Positions 1-61,186 of a stretch of 64,000 bases of DNA are shown one piece after another. The notes beneath the pieces were generated by a model. That model was not told the origin of the DNA and searched no databases. It saw only the letters and a program-made list of their open reading frames with translations. Each line of letters begins with the position of its first letter. Position 1 is the stretch's first letter. Location: the NCBI GenBank assembly GCA_014905635.1, contig JABVCE010000014.1, forward strand, positions 62,001 to 126,000. The letters run 5' to 3'. This DNA is from Scenedesmus sp. PABB004. Its lineage: Eukaryota. A program made the translations under genes and the position numbers.

Positions 1-920
1 TGACAGCGCATTCGCACGCCGCTCGCCCACAAGCGCTGCGCCGCGGCCGCGCGCGGCGGGCAGGTCGGGCGGCGGGCAGGCGAGCTGGGGCAGCGCCGCC
101 GCAGCAGCCCCGCGCCGGCGGCGCGGCGCTTGTGCGCGCGCGCCGTGCGAATGCATTGTCTAGCACGGCTTGACAGCGCATTCGCACGCCGCTCGCCCAC
201 AAGCGCTGCGCCGCGGCCGCGCGCGGCGGGCAGGTCGGGCGGCGGGCAGGCGAGCTGGGGCAGCGCCGCCGCAGCAGCCCCGCGCCGGCGGCGCGGCGCT
301 TGTGCGCGCGCGCCGTGCGAATGCATTGTCTAGCACGGCTTGACAGCGCATTCGCACGCCGCTCGCCCACAAGCGCTGCGCCGCGGCCGCGCGCGGCGGG
401 CAGGTCGGGCGGCGGGCAGGCGAGCTGGGGCAGCGCCGCCGCAGCAGCCCCGCGCCGGCGGCGCGGCGCTTGTGCGCGCGCGCCGTGCGAATGCATTGTC
501 TAGCACGGCTTGACAGCGCATTCGCACGCCGCTCGCCCACAAGCGCTGCGCCGCGGCCGCGCGCGGCGGGCAGGTCGGGCGGCGGGCAGGCGAGCTGGGG
601 CAGCGCCGCCGCAGCAGCCCCGCGCCGGCGGCGCGGCGCTTGTGCGCGCGCGCCGTGCGAATGCATTGTCAAGCACGGCTTGACAGCGCATTCGCACGCC
701 GCTCGCCCGCAAGCGCCGCGGCCGCGCGCGGCAGGCGGGTTGGGCGGCGGGCGGGCGAGCTGGGGCAGCGCCGCCGCAGCAGCCCCGCCGCGGCCGCGCG
801 CGCGCGCCGGCGGCGCGGCGCTTGTGCGCGCGCGCCGTGCGAATGCATTGTCAAGCACGGCTTGACAGCGCATTCGCACGCCGCTCGCCCGCAAGCGCCG
901 CGCTGCGGCCGTGCGCGGCC
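1..920. repeat. Tandem array of a 170-bp fold-back (TIR-bearing, MITE-like) unit inside an intron of the aminopeptidase gene; runs off the left edge
   Basis: Units start TGACAGCGCATTCGCACG at 1, 171, 341, 511, 681 and 863. The first four are (near-)identical, the fifth is a diverged 182 bp and the sixth is partial. Unit ends are inverted repeats of each other. Confidence 0.95.
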
Positions 921-1053
921 GGCGGGTCTGGCGCCGCGGTTCCTGCCTCGCCCGCTGTGATCCGCGCCCGCGGCGGCCGTGCTGGCGCTGACGCCCGCCC
1001 GCGCCCTGCCTCCGCCGCCGCCGTGCCCCGCTCCGCCCCGCCGCGCGGCGCAG

Positions 1054-30911: not shown

Positions 30912-32237
30912 TCACGCGGGCTGGGCGCGCGCCCAGTCGGCCACGGCGTCGTGCCCGCGCTCCCACGCCGCTGCTGCACAGGCCGCTCGGTCCCAGGGGC
31001 AGGGCGGCTCGCGCGAGTGCAGCCAGCGCAGGAGGTCCAGGTGGCCGGCAGCCGCCGCCTGCTTGCAGACCTGCTCGCTCCAGGGCGCGGGGTCGGGCTG
31101 CGCGCGCGCCCACTCGAGCACCTCCAGGCGCCCGTGCTGCGCAGCCTCACAGCAGACCGCCTGGTGCCAGGGGCAGGGCGGGTCCTGCGCGCGCAGCCAG
31201 CGCAGCGCCTCGAGCGAGCCGCCGCACGCCGCCGCGCCGCACGTGTGAACGTCCCACGGTGCGGGCGGGTCCTGGCTGCGCAGCCATGACAGCACGGCGA
31301 CGTGCCCCTGCTTGGCCGCCAGCGCGCAGGCCAGCGAGTCCCAGGGGCACGGCTCCGGCTGCTGCGCGCGCAGCCACTGGAGCGCCGCGAGCTGGCCGCC
31401 CGCAGCCGCGGCGGCGCAGGTGCGCGGACTCCACGGGGCGCCGCGCTCGCGCGCCCAGGCCAGCACGTGCAAGTGCCCGCCCGCCGCCGCCGCCGCGCAG
31501 ACATCGGCGGAGAGCGCCGGCGCCCCCGGCTGCGCCGCCACCCAGGCCAGCACGTCCAGGTGCCCGCCGAGCGCCGCCGCCTCGCAGACTTCCGCGCCCC
31601 ACGCGAGGCGGGGCCGCCGCGTGCGCGCCCACCGCAGCACCGCGACGTGCCCGCCGCCGGCGGCCGCCGTGCACACGCGCCCCATCGCGCACGCCTGGCT
31701 GCGCAGCCAGGCCAGCCTCGCCACGTCGCCGCACTCCGCGCGCGCCTCGGACAGCCACTCCTGGGCGTCGCGGCGCCGCTCCGCGCGGCAGGCCGCATAG
31801 GCTTCGCGAACGGCCACGGGCGGGAGGTCTGGGCAGCGCAGCGAGACGGCCGTGGCGCCGCGGAAGCGCTCGCGCGCGGCCTTGCAGACTCGCTTGGCGC
31901 TCCACGCCTGCAGCGCCGGCGGCAGGCGCCCCAGGATGTCCAGCAGCGCGACGCCGTCCGGCAGCCGCAGCGACACCGCGACGCCGAGCAGCCGCGACAC
32001 AGCGGCGGGCGGCAGCGCCCGCGCCGGCGCGGACGCGGGCGCCTTGCCGTGGCCGCCGCCCGCGTCGGCGAGCGACTCCACGCTGCTCGTGTCGAGCTGC
32101 TGCAGCGCCGCGAGAACGAGGGCCTCCACTCGCTCCGCCGGCAGCTCCGCCGCGGCGGGCTCGAGCCGCCAGAGCAGCGTGTCGACGGCGTCGGCAAACT
32201 CCGCCCGTATCGCCGCGAGCACACCTAGTGGGCGCAT
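30912..32237 (-). CDS. Intronless F-box-like + ankyrin-repeat protein (CAAAAxGGHLxVLxWLR..xCPW type)
   Basis: About 7 repeats of C.AAA.GGHL.VL.W.R....PCPWD; N-terminal LPDGVALLDILGRLP..SAKRVCK looks F-box-like; start uncertain (32237 or 32303). Confidence 0.88.
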   Translation of the reverse strand: MRPLGVLAAIRAEFADAVDTLLWRLEPAAAELPAERVEALVLAALQQLDTSSVESLADAGGGHGKAPASAPARALPPAAVSRLLGVAVSLRLPDGVALLDILGRLPPALQAWSAKRVCKAARERFRGATAVSLRCPDLPPVAVREAYAACRAERRRDAQEWLSEARAECGDVARLAWLRSQACAMGRVCTAAAGGGHVAVLRWARTRRPRLAWGAEVCEAAALGGHLDVLAWVAAQPGAPALSADVCAAAAAGGHLHVLAWARERGAPWSPRTCAAAAAGGQLAALQWLRAQQPEPCPWDSLACALAAKQGHVAVLSWLRSQDPPAPWDVHTCGAAACGGSLEALRWLRAQDPPCPWHQAVCCEAAQHGRLEVLEWARAQPDPAPWSEQVCKQAAAAGHLDLLRWLHSREPPCPWDRAACAAAAWERGHDAVADWARAQPA

Positions 32238-41430: not shown

Positions 41431-42492
41431 ATGGACGGCGGCGGCGGCGGCGGCGCGGCGCTCGCGCTGCTGCAGGAGTTCCAGGCGGTGCAGGCCGCGC
41501 GCGCGGAGGCGTACAGCCGCTTCGCCGGCGGCTTCCGCGATTTCCTGGGCCACGGGCAGGAGGGGCGGTACAAGCAGCTCATGGCCGCCGTCACGCCCGC
41601 GTTTGCGGCGGCGTCGCAGCAGGCGCGGCGGCCGCGGGGCGGATGCCGCCCGGCGCGCGGGGCGCGGGGTGCGCGGGGCGCAGGCAGCTGAGCACACGGC
41701 CGCCGTTGGTTGCCGGGCGCAGGTCATCCACATCGAGGGCTGCCTGCGCTCCGACGCGGTCGGCCGGCCCGACCTCGCGGCGCTGCTGCGCCGCGTGCAG
41801 GAGCTGGAGCGCGACAAGCTGCGCCTCACGCTGAGCTGGTGCGGCGGGCGCCGAGGCGGGCCCGGCCGCGGCGGCGGCGGCGCCAGCGCCGGGCGGCGGC
41901 CGACCCCCGCCGCCGCTCCCCCCTCGCCGCGCGCGCGCAGGCAGGCGCTGCGCGCAGCGCACGCCGCGGGGCGCTTCAGCTGGCAGGCGCCGGCGGACCG
42001 GCCGGGCGCCAAGTTCAGCCAGGAGCAGCAGGCGGCGCAGCTGCAGGGCCTGCTGCAGGTGCTGCGGCTCGAGCAGGAGGCGCTCGGGCGCGCGGGCGAC
42101 GACGTGCGCGCATGCACGAGCGACCAGCAGCGCGGCGGGGCGGCGCAGCAGGTGGAGGGGCACATGACGGTCAAGCCGGGCTTCTACCAGCAGCAGCTGG
42201 CGCAGGCGGCGGCCGCGGCCGCGGCGGCGCCCCCGCGCACGGCCCCGCCGGCGGCGCGCAGCCGCGCGAGCAGCAGCAGCCGCGCGGGGACCACCACCAC
42301 CACGGCTGCTGCGGGCACGGGCACGCCCCGCCCGACCCGCTGGACGCCGGCGGCGCGGAGGAGCCGAGCGAGGCCGAGTACTCGGCGGCGGTGCGCGAGG
42401 CGCTGCAGGCGCTCGACGGCTGCGTGGAGGGCATCAACGAGGCTCTGGAGGAGCTGCGCGACGCGGCGGCGGAGCTGGCGGGCGCGGAGTGA
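41431..42492 (+). CDS. REX1-B: REX1-B (required for excision 1-B) domain protein
   Basis: LLQEFQAVQAARAEAYSRF..GF, VTPAFAAASQQV..IE..L, LAALLRRVQELERDKLRLT and INEALEELR; apparent frameshift in the C-run near 42230. Confidence 0.88.
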
Positions 42493-44774: not shown

Positions 44775-47700
44775 ATGAACATCTGGGACCAGCTGGTGGA
44801 CTGCATCTGCCGCCCGCCGAGGTGGCCCGCCGCGCGCGAGCTGGCGACGACAACCCAGCACCGCGCGCCGCAGCGCGCCAGGGCCACGGCGTGGCCTGGG
44901 CGCGCCAGGGCCGCGCCCGACCCCCGGCCCGCGCCGCGTCGCGCTGCCGCAGGGATGTGTACGCGCCGCAGGAGCTGCTGGGCGGCACGCACCCGCAGTC
45001 GTTCATGGTCGGCAGCATGGAGGCGACACGCATCGACTATGAGCTGGTGCGGCCCGTTGGATGATGACGGGGGCGGGGCTGGCGGGGCCTGGGCTGGGTC
45101 GAGCTGTGGGCTGGAAGGCTGCAACAGCAGCAGCAGCATCGGCAGGCGGCAGACGGCAGACGGCAGCAGCTGCGGCCGGCGCGTGCGTGTGCCGGCGGCG
45201 AGCGCGGCCCGCGGGCGCGAGCGCTGGCGCCCGCCGACCCCCCCCGTGCGCGCCTGCCGCCGCGCCCGGCAGACGAGCACCCGCGGCGAGGCGATCCAGT
45301 GCAGCCACTACCTGCCGCTGGGCGCGGTGCCACGCGAGGGCTGCAAGCCGCCGGTCGTCGTGTACTGCCACTGCAACAGCGGCAGCCGGCGCGACGCGGA
45401 GGAGGCGGTCTGGCACCTGCTGCCCTGCGGCGTGGGCGTGGTCGCGTTTGACTTCACGGTGTGTGCAGGACTAGGACTAGCACTGAGCGCACCACGCGGC
45501 GCGACGACGCGCGCGGCGCGGCGGGGGCCGCGCGGCCGCGCCCGCCTGGCGGTGCGCAGACCGCCGCCCACGCGCAGCTACGCGCCGCCCGCCGCGCGCG
45601 CAGGGCTCGGGCCTGTCGGACGGGCGCTGGGTGACACTGGGCGCGCATGAGGTGGACGACCTGGCTGTCGTGGTGGCGCACCTGCGCGCCAAGTGGGGCG
45701 TTGGCACGATCGGGCTGTGGGGCCGCTCCATGGGCGCCGTGACGGCGCTGCTCTACGCGCACACAGACCCGGGCATCGCCGGAATGGTGCGGCGCCGGCG
45801 CGGCGCGGCGGGGTCCGCCACTGCGCGGGCGCGCGCCGGCCGCCGCTGGCCTGACGCGGCTGCTGTGTGCGCCGCCGGAACCGGGCGCAGGTGCTGGACA
45901 GCCCGTTCAGCCGGCTGACCGACCTCATGCTGGAGATTGTGGTCAGCCAGCGCCTGCCCATCCCCAAGGCGCGCCCGCCAGCGGGCGTGCTCCCGCGCAG
46001 CGCCGCCGGCTGCGGCGGCGGCGCGGCCGGCGCCCGCCCGCCCACCACCGGCGCGCCGCGCACCGCCCCGTCGCGCAGGTGATGCTGCGGCTGGCGCTGA
46101 AGCTCATGCGCGCGAGCGTGCGGCGCAAGGCGGGCGCCGACATCAACAGCGTGTCGCCGCTCGACGTCGTCGGCCGCGCGACCGTGCCGGCCATGTTTGG
46201 GCACGGCGAGGAGGACAGTTTCATTGACGTCTCACACTCGGGTGCGTGTGTGGGCGCGACGGCAGCGCGTCGCTGCGCGGCGCTGGGCTGCACGGCGGGG
46301 TGTGCAGCCGGGCGGGCGGCAACGCCCCCTGGGGGCGGCCGCCGCCCGCGGCACCACTGCGCCCGGGCCGGGCACCCCCTCCGCCGCCGCCCACGCGGCA
46401 CCGCGCGCGCGCGGCGCGCAGTGAAGCTCCACGCCGCGTACGCGGCGGCCGCGCCCGCGGGCGTGTACAAGAACCTCGTGCGCTTTGCGGGCGACCACAA
46501 CCACCCGCGCCCCGCGTTCTTCTACTCCTCTGTCTGCTGCTTCTTCCACCAGCAGCTGCGACTCGACGACCTGCTCCTGGGCGGCAACCCGGTGCGCGCC
46601 GCCGGGGGCCGGGCGCAGGGCGCAGGGGTCAGGGCAGCGGCGGCGCGCGGCGCGGGCGCTCAGCGGCCCGCCGTGCGGGCGCGGGTCGTCAGCGCCGGCG
46701 CGCCGCCTTCGCGTGTCACCGCGCGCCGCAGGCCGACACGCAGCAGCTGCTGCGCCACGGCTCGCTCAACCTCGCGGGCGAGGCGGCGGAGCAGGTGGAC
46801 CGCGCCAATGGGTTCATCAACACGCCGTGGAGCCTTGACGGCATGCACCAGCTGTCGGCGCTCGAGGACCAGCGCGACGCCGCGGCCGCGGCGCTGCTGC
46901 TGGAGGCGGCCGACGCGGAGGCGGCTGCCGCGTTTGCCGCCGCCGCGGCGCCGCGCGGCGCGGCGAGCGGCGCAGCCGCGGCGCGCCGCCGGCGCTCGGC
47001 GGCGGGCTCAACTCGCCGCGCGCGCCGCGGTCGCGCGCGCACGGCGGCTTTAGCTGCCGCGCCGACGGCGCCGTCGTGGGCTCGGCGCCGGCGGGCGTTG
47101 CGTTCGAGGAGCTCGTCGCGCAGCGCCAGCTGCAGCTCGCGGCGGCGGGCGCGGCGGCGCACGGCCGCGGCGCGTTTGACGGCGGCGCCGGCGCCGCGCC
47201 GGCGGGGCTCGCGCTGCGCGCGCGGCGGCTCGCCGACGACGCATTTGAGCTGGGCAGCCGCGGCGACCTGCTCAGCGCGGCGGCACGCGCAGCGCCCCCG
47301 GCCGCCGACGCGGGCGCGCCGCAGGGGCTGAGCGGCGCGCCCGGCCCGGGGCCGCGCAGCCCGGGGGGCAGCGCCAGCAGCGGCGCCGGCGGCGCGCGCT
47401 CGGCCAGCCCCAGCCTGCTGGCGGCCGGCGCCGACCGGCTGCTGGGGCTGCTTAAGCGCAAGGGCGGCGGCCTCGGAGCAGCCCCGGAGGCGGCGGCGCC
47501 TGGGGCGGCGCCCGATGCGGGGCCGGCGGCGGCGGCGACGCGCCGCTGTCGTCGTCGCCGCCGGCCGCGCCGCTCAGGAGCCCGCGAGGCAGCGGCCAAC
47601 CGGCGGCGGCGGCGGCGCGGTCCCTCGCCTACGGACAGGACCCGCGCCAGCAGCGCCCCCGCGCGCCGCTGCCGCCGCTGCCGTCGCTGTTTGCAGGCGC

Positions 47701-48238
47701 GGCCGGCGCCGGCCAGGCGGCGGAGTGGCAGCTGCCGCCGCGGCCAGGCAGCCCTGGGCCCGGCGGCGCATGGGCAGGCCACGCCGGCGCGGCGTCGGAC
47801 GACGACGAGCTGTCCGCCGTTGACGACCAGCTCGCCGCCGCAATCGCCGCGTCGCTGCTGGACCAGCAGCACCTCGGCGCCGGCGGCGCGCAGCCGCAGC
47901 AGCAGCAGCAGCAGCAGCAGCAGCTGCTGCTCCCGCCGCTCGGCGCCGCGCCGCGGCGGGAGCCGTTCACGCACGACGAAGAGGTCGAGATGATCCAGCG
48001 CGCCATCCAGCTCTCCCTCGCGGAGGCGGCGCTCGCGGAACGCGGTGGAGGCGGCGGCGGCGCGCTGCTGGAGAGCCAGGCGTCGGAGCCGCCGGCGCCG
48101 GCGGCACTGCTCGGCGGCGGCGGCGGCGGCGACCCGCCGCCGCCTGCGCAGCAGGGCGGCGACGGCGAGGTGCAGCAGGAGCCGGGCTTGCAGTGCTCGT
48201 CCGGCGGCCGCACGGTCGCGGCGCGGGGGCTGGCGTGA
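44775..48238 (+). CDS. Alpha/beta hydrolase (YqkD-like) with C-terminal UIM-like motifs
   Basis: WDQLVDCICRPPR, VVYCHCNSGSR, FDFTGSGLSDG, GLWGRSMGA (nucleophile), VLDSPFS and FAGDHNHPRP; UIM-like DDQLAAAIAASL and EEVEMIQRAIQLSLAE; 3' exon structure uncertain. Confidence 0.9.
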
Positions 48239-48445
48239 CGCATCAGGCGGCGGGGACCGCAGAGGGCTTAACGATTAAGCGCACACGCGCGCGGGCGGGC
48301 GACTTGCCCCGCACATGGTCCGTGGATCTAGCACTCATCACCACCGTCACCCGTTTTTCGCCATTGCCACGGGCTTCGTCCCCGGCGCTGTATTCTTTTC
48401 CTTTCCGCTAAACAATCCGTCAACGCCATGTAATAAGCGATGGCC

Positions 48446-48965
48446 TGCCGCAAGCGCCGCCCGTCCACCCGCGGCGCGATCGCCACCCGCACGCTGCGCG
48501 CGTCGCGCAGCATGCGCCGCCGCCGGGCGCTGCCGTACTGCTGGGGGCTGCGCCGCGTCGCGTTCGACGCGGCGCGCTGCTGCGAGCGCGGTGCGGCGTG
48601 CGTGGGCCGCGCGGGCGCCCGCCGGCGCGGCGCGGGCCGCGGTCAGCAGCGGTCAACGCTCGACCGCAGCGCTGCCGCTCGCGCGCCCGAGCCACCCGCG
48701 CGCCTCGCAGCGCACTTGCGCCACCAACGCGCCACCAACGCAACGCAGCGCTGCCCCGGACGACGCCGCCGGGGCCGGGCGCCGCAACCTTGCTGCGCCG
48801 CAACCTCAGCCCCCGCCCCTGCGCCTTCCTTGGGCGCCAGGTGCGCCGGTCCGGCTCCTGCTGCTCTCGGCGCGCCCCCAAAGGCCGCGCCCCGCCCGCC
48901 AGGGCCGCAGTCCAGGCTCCGCGTCCGCCACTCGCTGCTGCCAATCGCTGCCTACGAGCCGCCCC
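48446..48965 (+). repeat. Conserved 5' flank module A, copy 1 (upstream of gene 48990)
   Basis: Aligns by eye to 50629-51145 at high identity. Confidence 0.92.
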
Positions 48966-48989
48966 GAGCCTCCCCCAACCTCCAGCATC

Positions 48990-50397
48990 ATGGCCAATCG
49001 TCGCGCCGTCGCCCTCTCCTGCCTGCTGGCCTGCCTCCTGCTCGGCGCCGCGCGCGCCGACGACCCCAAGCCCCCGCCCGCCACGCGGCAGATTGACCCC
49101 GCCGTCGGCGCCGCCGCCGGCGCGGCGGGCGCGGCCGCGGGCACCGCCGTGGGCGCCCTCACGGGCGGCCTCATCAGCCCCGACGTCGCCGCGAGTGCGC
49201 GCCGCGCGGGCGCGCGCCGCGCTCGGCGCGCCGCGAGGGCCGCCGCCGACCCTGCCAACCCGCCGCCGCCCGCCGCCCTGCAGGCGTCGTGGCAAACAAG
49301 GTCATCGCCGCCGACTCGGCGGCCAAGGCCGCCGCCGACGTGGGCGGCCTCGTGGGCGGGCTCTTTGCGGGCCACGGCGCCAAGCTCGCCGCGCTCACGG
49401 GGTCGCACAAGGCGCTCGGCGCCGCGCTCGTCGAGGTCGTCCGCACGGTGAACTCCCTCAACATCGCCGGCGGCACCGCCGCCGTGGGCGTCGCCGACGC
49501 CGCGCTGACCGGGATCATGTCGCACATCAGGTCCGAGGGGCCGGGGGGCGCGCGCGCGCTGAGCACGCCGCGCGCCGCGCGCCGCGCGCCGCGCACCGCC
49601 GCCGGCTGACCAGCCCCCGCGGCGGCGCGCAGGTCGGAGGCGCTCGCGCTGGGCAACGTCTACGCCCAGCTGCTCGGCGAGTTTGGCCGCGCCGTCGGCG
49701 CGGGCGTGTCGGCGGCCGAGACGCTCGGCGCGGGCGGGCTGCGCTTCCTCAATCCCTTTGCGCTCGGCGTGGACAAGCTGGAGGTGCACCTCAACGCCCT
49801 CATCTCCTTCCTCGAGGTGGGGGGGGGGGGGGGGGGACGAGGCCCGTTCGCTCTCACACTGAGAGAGGGCCGCGCCGCGCCGCGCCGCGCCGCGCGGGAG
49901 GAAGCGAGGGCGGCGCGCCGCCGCCGACCCCGACCCGCCCAACCCCTGCCCATGCGCGCGCCTGCGCGCCCGCCCGCAGGGCGCCGCCGACGCGAGCGTC
50001 TCCAAACCCGGCCGCGCCGCGCACCTCGCGCCGTTCCTGGGTGCGCGCCGCGCGCGCGCCCGCGCGCGCGCGTCCCTGCGCTCGCGCGCGCCGCGGGCTC
50101 CCCTGCCGACCCCCGCGCCCCGCGTCGCCGCCGCGCGCAGGCACGCTCAAGGCGGTGCAGGGCCTGCTGGACGGCCTGCAGGCCACGCTGCTCGGCCCCG
50201 ACGGCGGCCTCCTGACCGCGTTTGACGACGCCATCGGCGCCGCGGCGGGCCTGCTCAACGGCGCCATCGGCGGCGCGGTCGACGCGGTCGCGGGCAAGCC
50301 GGTCGCGTCGGCGCTCGCGGGCCTCGCGTCCACCAGCCACGTCGCGGGCCTCGCGGGGCAGGCGCTGGGGCTCATCAACTCCCTGCTCGCGCCCTGA
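48990..50397 (+). CDS. Secreted Ala/Gly/Leu-rich, probably amphipathic-helical, hypothetical protein; 5 exons
   Basis: Signal peptide MANRRAVALSCLLACLLLGAARA-DD; ends GLINSLLAP*. Confidence 0.8.
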
Positions 50398-50429
50398 GCC
50401 CCGCGCGCGCGCTCTGTGTGCTGCTAGCT

Positions 50430-50620
50430 CGTGATGCGTGTTGCTGGCCCCCTGTGAACCCGCCGCCACTTGCGCGCGCCGACTGTGAACCTCAGAGAGT
50501 GCGGGTAACCGAGGCCGTGCACGGACGCGCGCGCGTGAGCGGAGGGACCCGCGCGCCCACACAGCTCAGTGCTTTCGCCGCCAGTCGCAGTCGCGCCGGC
50601 AGCGCCAAAGGAGTGCGCGC
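50430..50620 (+). repeat. Conserved 3' flank module B, copy 1
   Basis: GCGCGCGCCGACTGTGAACCTCAGAGAGTG..GGGTAACCGAGGCCG..CAGCGCCAAAGGA is shared with 53525-53758. Confidence 0.88.
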
Positions 50621-50628
50621 ACTGCCGG

Positions 50629-51145
50629 TGCCGCGAGCGCCGCCCGTCCGCCCGCGGGCGGCCGCGGCACGATCGCCACCCGCACACCGCGCGCGCCGCG
50701 CAGCATGCGCCGCCGCCGCGCGCTGACGTACTGCTGGGGCTGCGCCGCGGCGCGTTCGGCGCGGCGCGCTGCTGCGAGCGCGGTGCGGCGTGCGTGGGCC
50801 GCGCGGGCGCCCCGCCGGCGCGGCGCGGGCCGCGGTCAGCGGCGGTCAACGCTCGCCCGCAGCGCTGCCGCTCGCGCGCCCGAGCCACCCACGCGCCTCG
50901 CAGCGCACTCACGCCACCAACGCGCCACCAACACACCGCAGCGCTGCCCCGGACGACGCCGCCGGGGCCGGGCGCCGCAACCTTGCTGCGCCGCCGCAAC
51001 CTCAGCCCCCGCCCCTGCGCCCTCCTTGGGCGCCAGGTGCGCCGATCCGGCTCCTGCTGCTCTCGGCGCGCCCCCAAAGGCCGCGCCCCGCCCGCCAGGC
51101 CCGCAGTCAAGGCTGCAGCCCGCCTGCTGCCGACGAGCCGCCCCC
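50629..51145 (+). repeat. Conserved 5' flank module A, copy 2 (upstream of gene 51211)
   Basis: Aligns to 48446-48965. Confidence 0.92.
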
Positions 51146-51210
51146 ACGCCGTGCCGCGCGTCGCGCGCCCCCTGCCCTCCTCGCTCCCGCCCCCTCCCCG
51201 CACCAGCACG

Positions 51211-53458
51211 ATGCCGCCGCCCCGGCGCGCCGCCGCGGCCCTGCTCCTGCTGCTCTGCGCCGCCGCGGCGCAGGCGCAGCCGGTGCGCGCCCGCCGCCGC
51301 GCGCCGCGCCCCGCACCGCTGCGCACCGCCGCCGCGCGCCCGTCCACACTCTCGCCGACCGCCGCGCGCGCAGGCGTGCCGCGCGTACAAGCGCCTGTTC
51401 ACCTCCAGCGACCCCCGCCTGGTCATGGACCCGCTGGTCGTGCCCGAGTCGTTCGCCGTCGCCTCCGCGGCGGTCGCCGACGTGAGCGTCGCGCACGGCG
51501 CCGTCGGCGCGCTGCAGGTCACCCTGCTTCACCAGGCCCCCGGCGCGGAGCGCCCGACCGCGGTCGTGCTCAAGCGCAGCGCGGTCGGCGGCGCGGCCGC
51601 CAACCTCGCGGCCACGGGCTGGGACGACGCCGCGGCGTCCGAGTTCCCCGCCACCCCCGACGCCGCGCCCTTCACCGGCAACTTCCGGCCCGCGTCGCCG
51701 CTGTCCGGCTTCAACGGCCAGGACGCCGCGGGTGCGCGCCGCGCGCGGCGCGCGCGCGCGCGCCAGCCGCGCTGCGCCCGCCGCGCCGGCCCCACACGCG
51801 GCCGCCGCCTGCCGCCGCAGGCTCGTGGGTGCTGCGCATCGCCGACGTCAGCCTCGGCGGCGAGCCGGCCGGCCCGATCACCCTCACCGGCTGGAGCCTG
51901 ATCCTCTGCCCCGGCTCGACGCCCGTGCCCGTGGCCGACGTCGCCGCGGCCGCCGGCCCCGACGACGCCCCCGCTGCCCCCGCCGACCCCGCCGCGCCCG
52001 GCGAGGCCTGGCAGGCGCCGCCGGCGCTGCCCAACGGCACCATGCCGTCAGTCAACGTGAGCCTCAACGCGAGCGGCCTCAACGTCTCCATTGGCAACGG
52101 CACCACGCTGCGCCTGGGCCTCGGCGCCAACGTGTCCTCCTTCTCGGGGGTGCGCCGCGCGGGGCGCGCGCCGCCGCCGCGCCGGGGGCGCGCCGCGCGC
52201 ACGCGCCCGCGCCCGCGCCCACGCGCGCGCCCGCGCGCCCGCCGCGCCGCAGCCCGGCGAGGGCGGCAAGCTCGGCAACGCGCTGCTCGCGCTGCTCTTC
52301 CCCTTCAAGCCCCAGTGGGCGCCCGACGGTGCGCTCGCCGCGCCCGCGCACACGCCGCGCCGCGCCGCCGCGCCTACGCACATGCCGCCGCCCGCGCCCG
52401 CCGCGCGCCTCGCCCACCCGCCGCGCCGCCGCCCGCCGCCCGCCGCGCCGCGCAGCGTCGTCGTACAAGGCTGGGCCGGTGGTGTCGGCCGCGGGCGCGG
52501 CGCGCGACGCGGCGGAGGGGCACCTCGCCGACGCGCTCGACTTTGCGACCAAGGCCTCGGCGCTGGTGCGGGACGCGGTCAACAAGAAGATCAGCGACTA
52601 TACCAACACGGTCAACGCCGCGTCGGGGGCCACGCAGCGCCTGCTCACCAGCGGCGGCGCCGACCTGGGCAAGCACGCGGCGTCGCTGTTCGCGCACGCG
52701 GGCAGCCTGCGCGGCGCGCTCGCGGGCCTGCCCGCCGCCGCCGCGGGCGCCGCGCGGGCCGACCTGCAGGACAAGGCCTCCCACCTGCAGTCGGTCAGCT
52801 CCCTCCTCACCGGCTTTGCCTCGTCGCTCGTCGGCGACCTGGGCAGCTCCCTGGGCCTCGTCGGCAGCGCCGTGGCCGCCAAGGCGCGGCGCGGGGCGCG
52901 CGGGGGCGCGGGGGCGCGGCGCGGCGCGGCGCCGGCCGGCGCTGGCCTGGCCGGGCGCGCGCCGCGCGCCGCACGCCCCGAGCCGCGCCGCGCCGCCCGA
53001 CCCCTCTCTGCCCCCCCCCCCTTGTGCGCCCCGCATGGACACCGCCAGGCCAAGGCCCTGACCGGCGCGTACACAACGACCGAGGGCCTGGTCAAGGCGC
53101 ACGTCGACGAGGCGCGCGCGCGCGTCGCGTCGCCGCGCTCGACGCGCTGCTCGGCGCCATCATCGCCAAGGCCGACGCCGTCGCGGCCGCGCCCGGCACG
53201 GGGCCGGCGATCGACTTCACCGCCGCCGCGACCAAGGCCAAGCTCCAGGCGCTCACCGCCGCGCTGGGCAAGATCTCCGCCGCGCTGTCCGCGCTGCCGA
53301 CGCCGAGCGAGGCGATCGGCGCCAAGGCCAGCGCCGTGGGCGCGCTGCTCGGCGCGACGCACGTCGGCCAGGCGGTCGCCGACCCCCAGGGCGCGCTGAC
53401 CTCCCTCGTGGGCAAGTTCTCCCAGCTCAAGGGCCTCGCCGCCAACCTCCTGGGCTGA
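51211..53458 (+). CDS. Secreted protein: proprotein-convertase P-domain plus an Ala/Gly/Leu-rich helical region
   Basis: Signal peptide; VSVAHGAVGALQVTL, FTGNFRPASPLSGFNGQDAAGSWVLRIAD..LTGWSL (P-domain pattern); several N-x-S/T sequons; apparent frameshift near 53125-53130. Confidence 0.8.
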
Positions 53459-53524
53459 GCCTGAGCCGGCGCGCAGGCTCGGCGTCCCCGCGACCCCAAC
53501 CCGCGTGTGCGCGCGCGCGCCGCC

Positions 53525-53758
53525 CGTGACGCGCGAGCTGGCCCCCCTGTTGAGTGCTGTGACCCCGCCGCCGCCGCGCGCGCGCCGACTGTGAACCTCA
53601 GAGAGTGTGTGCGGGGTAACCGAGGCCGGCCACGGCGACGCGCGCGCGTGAGCAGACAAACGACCGTTACGCAGTTCAGTGCTCTCACCGCCAGAGCCGC
53701 AGTCGCGGCGTGACCGACGCAGCGCTGCGTGCCTCAGCAGCGCCAAAGGAATGCGCGC
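53525..53758 (+). repeat. Conserved 3' flank module B, copy 2
   Basis: Aligns to 50430-50620, with indels. Confidence 0.88.
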
Positions 53759-53785
53759 CCTCAAAACCGGCCCGCCGCGGCGCCG

Positions 53786-55421
53786 TCAGGGCAGGCAGTC
53801 GTCCCAGAGCTTTGAGAGCGGGAACTGGGGGTTGAAGCCGCCCCACGCGTTGGGACACGTGTCGCTGCACGCGGCCCCGTCCTCGCACGTGTACGACGCG
53901 GTGCCGATGCAGCACCCGGTGCCGGTGTGCACGAGGCAGCCGCCCGACTCGCCGCCGATCATCGACCCGGTCGCCCAGATGGAGTACTTGTCGGCGCCGC
54001 AGCGCCCCAGCGCAAAGCCCTTGCGGTAGTTCAGGTTGCTGCTCATGCCGCGGCTCTCCACCATGCCCAGGTACGGCTGCTTGCCCTCGAAGCACCGCAG
54101 CTCGCTCCTGTCGGCCGGGAAGGCGAGCATCGCCGTCTCCGTGTGCAGCCGCTGCTCGGCCGGCAGGTTCTTCACATACTCCACGCCCCTGCGGCGGAGA
54201 GAGGCACGCGGTCGGCGCGGCCCGGCGCCGCGCCGCGCCGGCGCAGCAGCGCGCCGGGGCCGCCGACGCGGCCGCGCGGCCCCGCAGCGGAGGAGCCCCC
54301 CGGCCCTCCCACGACGCCGCTCACATGTAGCGCGGCAGGTTCAGCGGCTGCTTGAGCACGATGATCGCGTTGTCAGCCTGGGGCCGCGGCGCGGCCGGCA
54401 GGCCGCGGCGGCGGGCGGCGGCTCAACGGCGGGGCGCGGCAGCGGCGCCGCACGCCCCGCGGCTTGCGCACGAGGGCCCCGCGCGCGCAAGCCGTTCGGC
54501 CCGCGCCGCCGCTTGCGCCGCGCCGCGCCGCGCCGCGCCGCGCCGCGCATGGCGCTGCTCGCTGCGCGGGCCCACCTGGCGGTCGTCGTTGAAGAAGGCC
54601 ACGCAGCGGCTCACGCCGCGGCCCGCCGTTGCGTGCGCGCCGTCGTAGCCGTAAAGGGCGTCCACGACGACGCGCGGCCAGAGCGCCGGGTTGTCGGGCA
54701 TCACGCAGTGCGCGCTCGTCACCAGCACGATGTCGCTGCGGGACGGCGACGCGCGGCGTCGGGCCCGCGCAGCCCGCCGCGCGGCGAGCCGCGGCTGTGG
54801 CGGCCCGGCGGGTGCGACGGGCGCGGCGCGGCGGGCGCGGCCGCACCTGATGGCCGTCGCCGTGCACTCATACGTGTCGCGCGCGAGCGTGCCGTCGTTG
54901 CGCACCGCGGTGATGCGGATCTTGACGACAGCGTTGTACGGGTATTCGGCGAGGTAGGCGGTGTTGCCGCGCTCGAGGCTGAGCTGGTTGTACAGAGGCT
55001 TGCCGCCCTGCCAGCACACGTTGGCCGGGTTGCGCGGCGCCGCGGTCGCGTTGCCCGCAAACCCGACGGCGCGGCGGCGCGTGATTGGCCCTGAAGGCGG
55101 CGTGGCGCCGTCCGGGGCCGCCGCCGCCGCCGCGCGCCGCGCCGCGCGCAGGGCCGCCACGTCGGCGTCGTCGGTGAGCAGCCGCTTCGCCGAGCCGCGC
55201 AGGCGGCTCGCGCGCGTGATGGGCGGCAGGATCGGCGCGTCGGCGTCGGGCGAGCCCGCCTGGCGCAGCCGCGCCTGCACCTCCGCCCACATCGGCGCCT
55301 GCGGCGCCTTGCAGCCGCTGGGCGCCGCCGCGGCCGCCGGTGCCGCCGGAGCTGCGAGCGCCAGCGCCAGCAGCAGCAGCGCCGCCGTGCCCGCCGGTGC
55401 CGCCGGCCGCCGCCGCCGCAT
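53786..55421 (-). CDS. Secreted trypsin-fold serine protease (V8/glutamyl-endopeptidase-like), 4 exons
   Basis: Signal peptide and propeptide; YPYNAVVKI, CTATAI..VLVTSAHCV (His), DNAIIVL (Asp), GGESGG (Ser); Cys-rich C-terminus. Confidence 0.85.

Positions 55422-55856: not shown

Positions 55857-61186
<5,330 letters not shown>

What the first reader, a model, noticed from the sequence alone, without database searches (positions are those of the whole stretch)
48446..53758. Two abutting expression cassettes: conserved 5' and 3' non-coding flanks around non-alignable secreted-protein genes
Seen: the layout is A-gene1-B-A'-gene2-B'. A (48446-48965) and A' (50629-51145) match closely over ~500 bp, roughly 90% by eye. 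B (50430-50620) and B' (53525-53758) are clearly homologous, and B ends ~10 bp before A' begins. Homology stops just before each ATG and resumes after each stop. The CDSs differ in signal peptide, exon number and domain content (only gene 2 has a P-domain), and I cannot align them. Established: after tandem duplication, coding sequence normally stays more conserved than flanks, so this pattern is inverted. Inference: a reusable promoter/terminator chassis with exchangeable cargo, flank-restricted gene conversion co-regulating a secreted family, or extreme diversification of the cargo. Doubled motifs in A (GCCACCAAC, GCCGCAACCT, CGGTCA, each twice) are candidate cis-elements.
Basis: partly seen in the sequence, partly recalled or inferred. 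Interest (0 to 1): 0.8.

Follow-up and report, generated by a model that had tools for sequence, protein, structure and literature searches.

The report
Two dissimilar genes share duplicated flanks
In a GC-rich green alga, two neighbouring secreted-protein genes sit in near-identical upstream DNA and related downstream DNA, although their coding sequences barely align; this is a real but one-off tandem duplication whose flanks were probably kept alike by gene conversion, not a genome-wide cassette system.

Summary
The layout is real. A/A' are 96% identical over 472 aligned bases and B/B' 86% over 144. Only 5 bases separate B from A'. Each flank was found only twice in the 40-Mb genome, so neither is a dispersed transposon or a reusable chassis.

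Gene 2 is the conserved resident. It belongs to a chlorophyte family of secreted proteins with a P-domain and a helical tail (44% identical to a Flechtneria protein) and carries a frameshift that may be an assembly error. Gene 1 (317 aa, intact, amphipathic helical) has no detected homolog anywhere. Its similarity to gene 2 is weak, is not seen by the family profile, and no intron is clearly shared.

Divergence is layered: coding bodies far older than B, B older than A. The best explanation (0.4) is an old tandem duplication of a one-gene slot, with gene 1 as the fast-evolving copy and conversion confined to the flanks, probably giving co-expression. Rivals are capture of gene 2's flanks by an unrelated gene (0.25), two idiomorph-like alleles joined in tandem (0.22) and misassembly (0.08). 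Expression and the junction could not be tested.

The parts
48429..48433 (+). TGTAA, putative poly(A) signal of the upstream alpha/beta-hydrolase gene (stop at 48238); A begins 13 nt after it
   Evidence: motif scan; hydrolase exon Pfam Hydrolase_4/Peptidase_S15; TGTAA as green-algal poly(A) signal is recalled
48446..48965 (+). A: non-coding promoter/5' leader of gene 1; 96% core to 48918, older-looking shoulder block 48947-48965
   Evidence: no three-base GC periodicity, unlike exons; no Rfam match; two copies in the genome
48990..50397 (+). Gene 1: exons 48990-49194, 49284-49530, 49633-49816, 49980-50040, 50141-50397; 317 aa; signal-peptide-like N-terminus; Ala/Gly/Leu-rich amphipathic helical mature part without Cys; no homolog found
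   Evidence: model; GC3 96.5%; helical moment 0.226 vs 0.167+-0.017 shuffled; blank searches
50398..50623 (+). B: 3' region of gene 1; core 50452-50598, tail block 50599-50623
50624..50628 (.). B|A' junction: 5 nt, no repeat or spacer
50629..51144 (+). A': promoter/5' leader of gene 2
51211..53458 (+). Gene 2: exons 51211-51282, 51374-51731, 51821-52149, 52253-52328, 52456-52883, 53049-53458 (intron 5 has a GC donor); signal peptide, P-domain-like beta-sandwich, N-glycosylation-site linker, about 270-aa helical domain
   Evidence: ortholog P0002 257/585 identical columns; family in Flechtneria, Haematococcus, Gonium; two Cys and linker sequons shared with P0002
53112..53128 (+). Frameshift in gene 2's last exon, 2 nt longer than the ortholog spacing, in a GC dinucleotide run; assembly error or real loss of function
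   Evidence: ortholog matches on both sides in different frames
53459..53761 (+). B': 3' region of gene 2; 26 extra nt at 53711-53736 relative to B; ends 24 nt before the stop of the convergent downstream gene
   Evidence: a wild contig spans 53522-54073 with 4 differences in 552 nt

Best explanation
The interval between the upstream hydrolase's poly(A) site and the downstream gene's stop is a one-gene slot (A-gene-B) that was duplicated in tandem long ago. One copy (gene 2) kept the ancestral chlorophyte protein. The other (gene 1) lost the P-domain and diverged to the edge of detectability. Recurrent non-allelic gene conversion between the neighbouring copies keeps the non-coding flanks alike, A most recently and B earlier. 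Tracts entering the coding bodies fail for lack of homology or are removed by selection, so similarity stops 24-66 nt short of each ATG and resumes about 30-60 nt after each stop. The likely effect is co-expression of two secreted, amphipathic-helical cell-surface proteins from one promoter design. Shown: the layout, copy numbers, layered divergence and conservation of gene 2. Inferred: conversion, paralogy of gene 1, co-regulation and secretion.
For: Divergence is layered: A 20/472 substitutions vs B 20/144 (Fisher p=1.5e-4), with identical runs of 30-54 nt in A. Coding third positions agree at chance level (40 of 76 vs 43 expected). A's outer edge is the most diverged part (9/124 vs 7/175 and 4/173), with gappy shoulders towards the ATGs. 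Over 182 nt, A and A' differ by 7 substitutions + 1 indel, whereas one wild contig differs from A' by 12 + 1 and from A by 13 + 2. P1 vs the P2 helical part scores 136 against 79+-11 shuffled (0 of 500) and 93-100 under periodicity-keeping nulls (1, 0, 3 and 7 of 500), on one diagonal (offset 236-253) with four matrices and the same C-terminal register. No donor for gene 1 was found elsewhere in the genome. Precedent for non-coding sequence converted while coding sequence stays divergent: opsins and colobine RNases (PMC3924837, passages).
Against: The family profile does not recognise P1: HMM -7.1 bits, below the shuffle mean; hhalign 0.3%, no better than reversed P1; P1 vs P0002 matched by 69 of 500 shuffles and vs P0065 by 135 of 500. 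P1's thirds align in inconsistent registers. None of gene 1's 4 introns coincides with a gene 2 intron on the collinear alignment. The junction is sharp to 5 nt, surprising for a very old duplication. The wild contig is a single record of depth 3.1 from a possibly multi-strain sample, and a neighbouring intron-spanning contig has 4 substitutions + 4 gaps in 153 nt. Stronger purifying selection on A could mimic conversion.
Confidence: 0.4

Rival explanations
1. Regulatory capture by an unrelated gene. The slot was duplicated at about B's age, and an unrelated native gene came to lie between the copied promoter and 3' region (replacement of one coding body, or duplication of a two-gene block followed by deletions). 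A was converted later.
For: No profile-level homology; no shared intron on the diagonal; sharp junction, with the 23/25 tail block consistent with B's overall divergence; gene 1 has native codon and intron style.
Against: Both breakpoints must fall within about 25-65 nt of start and stop codons. No donor or remnant was found (one search scored only 40 of 314 candidates). Both proteins are secreted-type with similar-length amphipathic helical parts and a weak collinear signal.
Confidence: 0.25
2. Two idiomorph-like alleles (A-gene1-B and A-gene2-B) occupied one locus in different strains. Allelic recombination kept their flanks alike, and one non-homologous exchange joined them in tandem. A x A' or B x B' recombination would pop either gene out again.
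For: The repeated unit fills exactly the space between the two neighbour genes. Homology ends at the coding edges. The junction is sharp. A third A version exists in a wild sample. Idiomorphic and highly polymorphic loci with conserved flanks are known in fungi (PMC10890737, passages).
Against: Gene 2 is conserved across Chlorophyceae, so strains lacking it would be unexpected. Identity should rise away from the coding sequence, but A's distal part is the most diverged and B's distal part has many indels. No single-gene haplotype was seen.
Confidence: 0.22
3. Assembly artefact: two haplotypes or contigs were concatenated at the B|A' junction.
For: The assembly seems to carry small indel errors (gene 2 frameshift; a homopolymer frameshift near 42230). 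No read spanning the junction was seen.
Against: The junction has no overlap or repeat. The copies differ by 4-14% plus indels, far above error level. The unit is only 5.3 kb inside a long contig. Even then two very different genes would share flanks, which is the idiomorph case.
Confidence: 0.08
4. A and B are dispersed mobile or repetitive elements, or a genome-wide reusable chassis around many secreted genes.
For: None beyond the two copies.
Against: B: 2 of 2 matches are these copies. A: 2 of 32 matches are these copies; the other 30 are short (38-185 nt), 70-87% identical GC-rich hits within query positions 50-314. The tool warns that counts are lower bounds.
Confidence: 0.03

Closest known systems
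Tandem duplicates under conversion with a coding divergence peak (primate red/green opsins; colobine pancreatic RNases), PMC3924837 (passages seen)
   Same: Neighbouring duplicates whose non-coding sequence is more alike than the coding sequence, explained by conversion plus selection.
   Different: There the introns are converted and the proteins align easily. Here introns do not align, the proteins are at most about 25-34% identical, and the domain content differs.
S. pombe wtf genes with the conserved_up element, PMC5478263 (passages seen)
   Same: A nearly identical 288-bp upstream element is shared by diverged genes; clustered copies stay distinct despite ectopic conversion.
   Different: wtf is a 25-member dispersed meiotic-driver family with alignable genes. 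This is a two-copy locus with a conserved partner and no evidence of drive.
Fungal idiomorphic or pseudo-allelic loci (het-Q, het-B, mating type), PMC10890737 (passages seen); idiomorphic gene clusters, PMC5711037 (search listing only)
   Same: Dissimilar genes between conserved flanks at one position.
   Different: Idiomorphs are alternatives in different strains. Here both lie in tandem, and allelic alternation was not observed.
Trypanosome VSG-type cassette switching (recalled, no call)
   Same: Conserved 5' and 3' blocks around non-alignable secreted or surface cargo.
   Different: It needs an archive of many cassettes and an expression site; only two copies exist here.
Proprotein convertase P-domain (PF01483; P/Homo B) proteins
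   Same: Gene 2's N-terminal beta-sandwich. Orthologs hit PF01483 at E 0.003-0.03; a Gonium member is named P/Homo B domain-containing; a family model matches a kexin-like protease, Kex2 and furin.
   Different: No subtilase domain; followed by a helical tail; scores are below Pfam's cut-off.

Membership tests
Reusable cassette / antigenic-variation archive | Many loci with the same flanks around different cargo | tested here: not met
   two copies each (search counts are lower bounds)
Reusable cassette / antigenic-variation archive | Switching of cargo between strains or cells | not testable with these tools
   no second assembly or reads across the locus
Transposable element or dispersed repeat | Multiple dispersed copies | tested here: not met
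Transposable element or dispersed repeat | Terminal repeats or target-site duplication | tested here: inconclusive
   none visible in the edge sequences printed; no dedicated repeat search was run
Duplicates under gene conversion | Tandem units with homologous flanks | tested here: met
Duplicates under gene conversion | Uneven divergence along the unit | tested here: met
   A 4.2% vs B 13.9%, p=1.5e-4; third positions at chance on an uncertain alignment
Duplicates under gene conversion | Paralogs closer to each other than to orthologous copies in relatives | tested here: inconclusive
   one wild contig of depth 3.1 fits, but its orthology is unknown
Duplicates under gene conversion | The two coding sequences are homologous | tested here: inconclusive
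   weak pairwise signal, no family-profile signal
Idiomorphs | Dissimilar sequences between shared flanks | tested here: met
Idiomorphs | Occur as alternatives at one locus in different individuals | not testable with these tools
   metagenome scans gave no algal locus
P-domain (PF01483) protein, gene 2 | Pfam gathering score of 21 bits | tested here: not met
   orthologs 15-18.3 bits; window exons no hit
P-domain (PF01483) protein, gene 2 | P-domain beta-sandwich fold | tested here: met
   model of family member P0064 with an alignment containing window exons, pLDDT mostly 85-97 over residues 21-180; best Foldseek hits a kexin-like protease (E 1.3e-4), Kex2 and furin; E-values modest, viral jelly-rolls also score
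Proprotein convertase enzyme, gene 2 | Subtilase catalytic domain | tested here: not met
   no such Pfam or NCBIfam hit in orthologs or exons

The most novel reading that the evidence does not exclude
This is an idiomorph-like cargo slot in a green alga. One promoter/terminator frame carries alternative, non-homologous secreted proteins in the population. The tandem state seen here resolves by A x A' or B x B' recombination into single-gene haplotypes, giving a switchable cell-surface locus of a kind known from fungi.
Probability: 0.22. Interest if true: 0.72.

Novelty: new variant of a known kind. Interest (0 to 1): 0.48.

Why it matters
It is an extreme case of non-coding flanks outlasting coding homology: introns, codons and domain content are unalignable, yet 470 bp of promoter are 96% identical. 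Under any of the three biological readings it shows how an orphan gene can share a complete regulatory frame with a conserved neighbour. Population data could separate conversion from capture from idiomorphy at a single 5-kb locus. The direct repeats also predict one-step loss of either gene. As a by-product, gene 2 defines a chlorophyte family of secreted P-domain plus helical proteins; one literature search for it found nothing. It is not a new genome-wide system.

Tried and rejected
Homologs of gene 1, all blank: own genome by exons 1, 2, 3 and 5 (exon 4 not searched) and by DNA; the 5.8-billion protein set with exon 3 (0 of 636 candidates); ESM Atlas with exon 3; viral contigs with exons 3 and 5; prokaryote genomes with exon 2; Pfam and NCBIfam. 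All used single exons of 61-84 aa, so sensitivity is low and the blanks do not prove orphan status.

Gene 2 helical part: exon 5 found nothing among 8000 candidates; the Atlas gave one low-score lead (0.77); P0002 residues 270-557 found only itself; no solved structure by sequence; the AlphaFold model from 3 sequences was unusable (pLDDT 39.9).

Synteny in other algae: a 24-nt B pattern had 0 matches in metagenome contigs; a P-domain alignment gave 1 locus at 35% identity that I did not examine.

Reads: no RNA holder listed. The one DNA run gave no listed piece across the junction, the frameshift or gene 1 (only 8 of 658 pieces were shown), which is no evidence either way.

Rfam: 0 matches. 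Earlier scan findings: none returned.

Considered and left unresolved: gene 1 intron 1 and gene 2 intron 2 are both 89 nt and phase 1, and score 73, above all 117 motif-picked candidate introns (maxima 68 and 70), with similar exon flanks (7 of 234 controls as high). However, two introns within gene 2 score 81 against each other, the control set contains false introns, and the implied register conflicts with the protein diagonal.

I rejected calling the wild A contig a mosaic: three sequences cannot show recombination. I rejected A as coding.

Literature searches for the same pattern in algae listed no such case in the library searched. PMC11500718 (passages) concerns megabase-scale haplotypes and was not close. 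No supplements were read.
Full report
Observation. The window is G000:C7:62001-126000, in a 40-Mb assembly of 80 contigs with 75-83% GC here and spliceosomal introns. The closest full-length protein relative comes from Flechtneria rotunda, Scenedesmaceae, so the organism is very probably a chlorophycean alga. Apart from a satellite at 1-936, the A/A' match is the strongest repeat in the window: 48446-48918 vs 50629-51114, 92.6% over 487 columns, with 452 matches, 20 substitutions and 15 gap columns. An 18/19 block extends homology to 48965/51144. B's core (50452-50598 vs 53557-53710) has 124 matches, 20 substitutions and 13 gaps, and a 23/25 tail block ends at 50623/53761. Five bases separate B from A'. 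A has no coding periodicity and no Rfam match.

Copy number. B matches only these two places (2 of 2). A gives 32 matches, of which 2 are the copies and 30 are short GC-rich hits. The tool states that such counts are lower bounds, but a dispersed element or general chassis is not supported.

Boundaries. A begins 13 nt after a TGTAA at 48429 (the green-algal poly(A) signal, recalled), downstream of an alpha/beta-hydrolase gene. B' ends 24 nt before the stop of a convergent gene. The repeated unit is therefore the whole one-gene slot between two neighbours, and nearly all of the 813 nt between gene 1's stop and gene 2's ATG is B plus A'.

Gene 2. Six exons encode a signal-peptide-like N-terminus, a P-domain-like region, a linker with six N-glycosylation sequons and a helical domain of about 270 aa. 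Its second exon found 379 proteins at E<=0.001 among 1.84 billion representatives. These include a 557-aa Flechtneria protein with 257 identical columns of 585 and members from Haematococcus and Gonium. Four family members hit PF01483 only below the cut-off. A model of one member has a confident beta-sandwich whose best structural matches are a kexin-like protease, Kex2 and furin. Gene 2 is single-copy. Its last exon has a frameshift, 2 nt longer than the ortholog spacing, in a GC run. A neighbouring gene has an apparent homopolymer frameshift near 42230, so assembly error is plausible but unproven.

Gene 1. Five exons give an intact 317-aa protein with GC3 of 96.5% and host-type introns. It is Ala/Gly/Leu-rich, amphipathic (moment 0.226 vs 0.167+-0.017) and has no Cys after the signal region. 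No homolog was found in the genome or any collection searched, all with short single exons except the DNA search.

Are the two proteins related? Unresolved. For: P1 against P2's helical part scores 136 vs 79+-11 (0 of 500 shuffles; 131 and 2 of 1000 with a slightly shorter target). Only 1, 0, 3 and 7 of 500 periodicity-preserving controls reach it, though one order-preserving control reached 138. The alignment keeps one diagonal under four matrices and ends in register. Against: composition-adjusted BLASTP gives E=0.043; the orthologs P0002 and P0065 show no signal; the family HMM scores P1 at -7.1 bits; hhalign gives 0.3%. Parts align in inconsistent registers, third positions agree at chance (40 of 76 vs 43 expected), and none of 4 introns is shared on that diagonal. 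One 89-nt phase-1 intron pair is suggestively similar but inconclusive. I put homology at about even odds.

Layered ages. A (4.2% substitutions) is significantly less diverged than B (13.9%; p=1.5e-4), and both are far younger-looking than the gene bodies. One duplication date cannot give this without later exchange in A or much stronger constraint on it. A's outer edge is its most diverged part. In a freshwater metagenome run, contigs match gene 2 exon 3 with 3 differences in 206 nt and B' plus the downstream gene with 4 in 552, which confirms that linkage in nature. An A-like contig differs from A' by 12 substitutions and a gap in 182 nt: 10 states are private, 3 are shared with A and 5 with A'. 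A and A' are thus closer to each other than to this version, as conversion predicts. It is one contig of depth 3.1 in a possibly mixed sample, and another intron-spanning contig is also more diverged, so this is a hint only.

Mechanism. Most likely (0.4): an old tandem duplication with asymmetric evolution of gene 1 and conversion limited to the flanks, probably yielding co-expression of two secreted surface proteins. The P-domain may bind wall carbohydrate or a partner and the helices a hydrophobic surface; this is inference only. Rivals: capture of the duplicated frame by an unrelated gene (0.25); two idiomorph-like alleles joined by one non-homologous exchange (0.22); misassembly (0.08); dispersed chassis (0.03). 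The sharp junction favours the first two rivals. In every biological reading, recombination between A and A' would delete gene 1 and between B and B' would delete gene 2, which is testable in strains.

Comparison with known cases. Conversion of non-coding sequence with divergent coding sequence is described for opsins and RNases (PMC3924837, passages). A shared upstream element among diverged genes is described for wtf (PMC5478263, passages). Dissimilar alleles between conserved flanks are described for fungal het loci (PMC10890737, passages). It works like the first, but is more extreme. Membership among idiomorphs was not testable, and membership among cassette archives failed. Searches listed no algal case; the library lacks most subscription papers, and no supplements were read.

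Verdict. Real, unusual and local. New variant of a known kind; interest 0.48. The junction, expression, secretion and the origin of gene 1 remain untested.

Noticed in passing
window 1-936: 170-bp tandem satellite, 5.4 copies at 95% identity, running off the window start.
   Followed up: no
window 42225-42240: Apparent frameshift at a C run in a REX1-B-domain gene; the downstream frame reads a His/Cys-rich motif and a helical C-terminus. Probably an assembly indel.
   Followed up: partly
window 53786-55420 (- strand): Convergent gene with a signal-peptide-like start and trypsin-like motifs (TSAHC, GESGG; family motif recalled). Pfam gave no hit on the two exons tested.
   Followed up: partly
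window 55860-60000 (- strand): Intron-rich DNA gyrase A gene; C-terminal beta-propeller repeats hit PF03989.
   Followed up: no
window 44775-48238: Alpha/beta-hydrolase gene with a long low-complexity C-terminal extension directly upstream of A.
   Followed up: partly
window 49195-49283 and 51732-51820: Gene 1 intron 1 and gene 2 intron 2 have the same length (89 nt) and phase, with similar sequence and exon flanks; shared origin or an intron family is possible.
   Followed up: partly
window 51150-51206: Possible short 5'-UTR intron in gene 2 (GT...AG just before the ATG) accounting for the extra leader length relative to gene 1.
   Followed up: no
proteins P0002, P0065, P0079, P0154: Chlorophyte family of secreted P-domain plus amphipathic helical proteins; the P-domain is 35-45% identical to repeated P-domains in many very long proteins from metagenomes and bacteria.
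   Followed up: partly
window 30917-31716: Imperfect coding-like tandem repeat, 66% identical over 600 nt.
   Followed up: no
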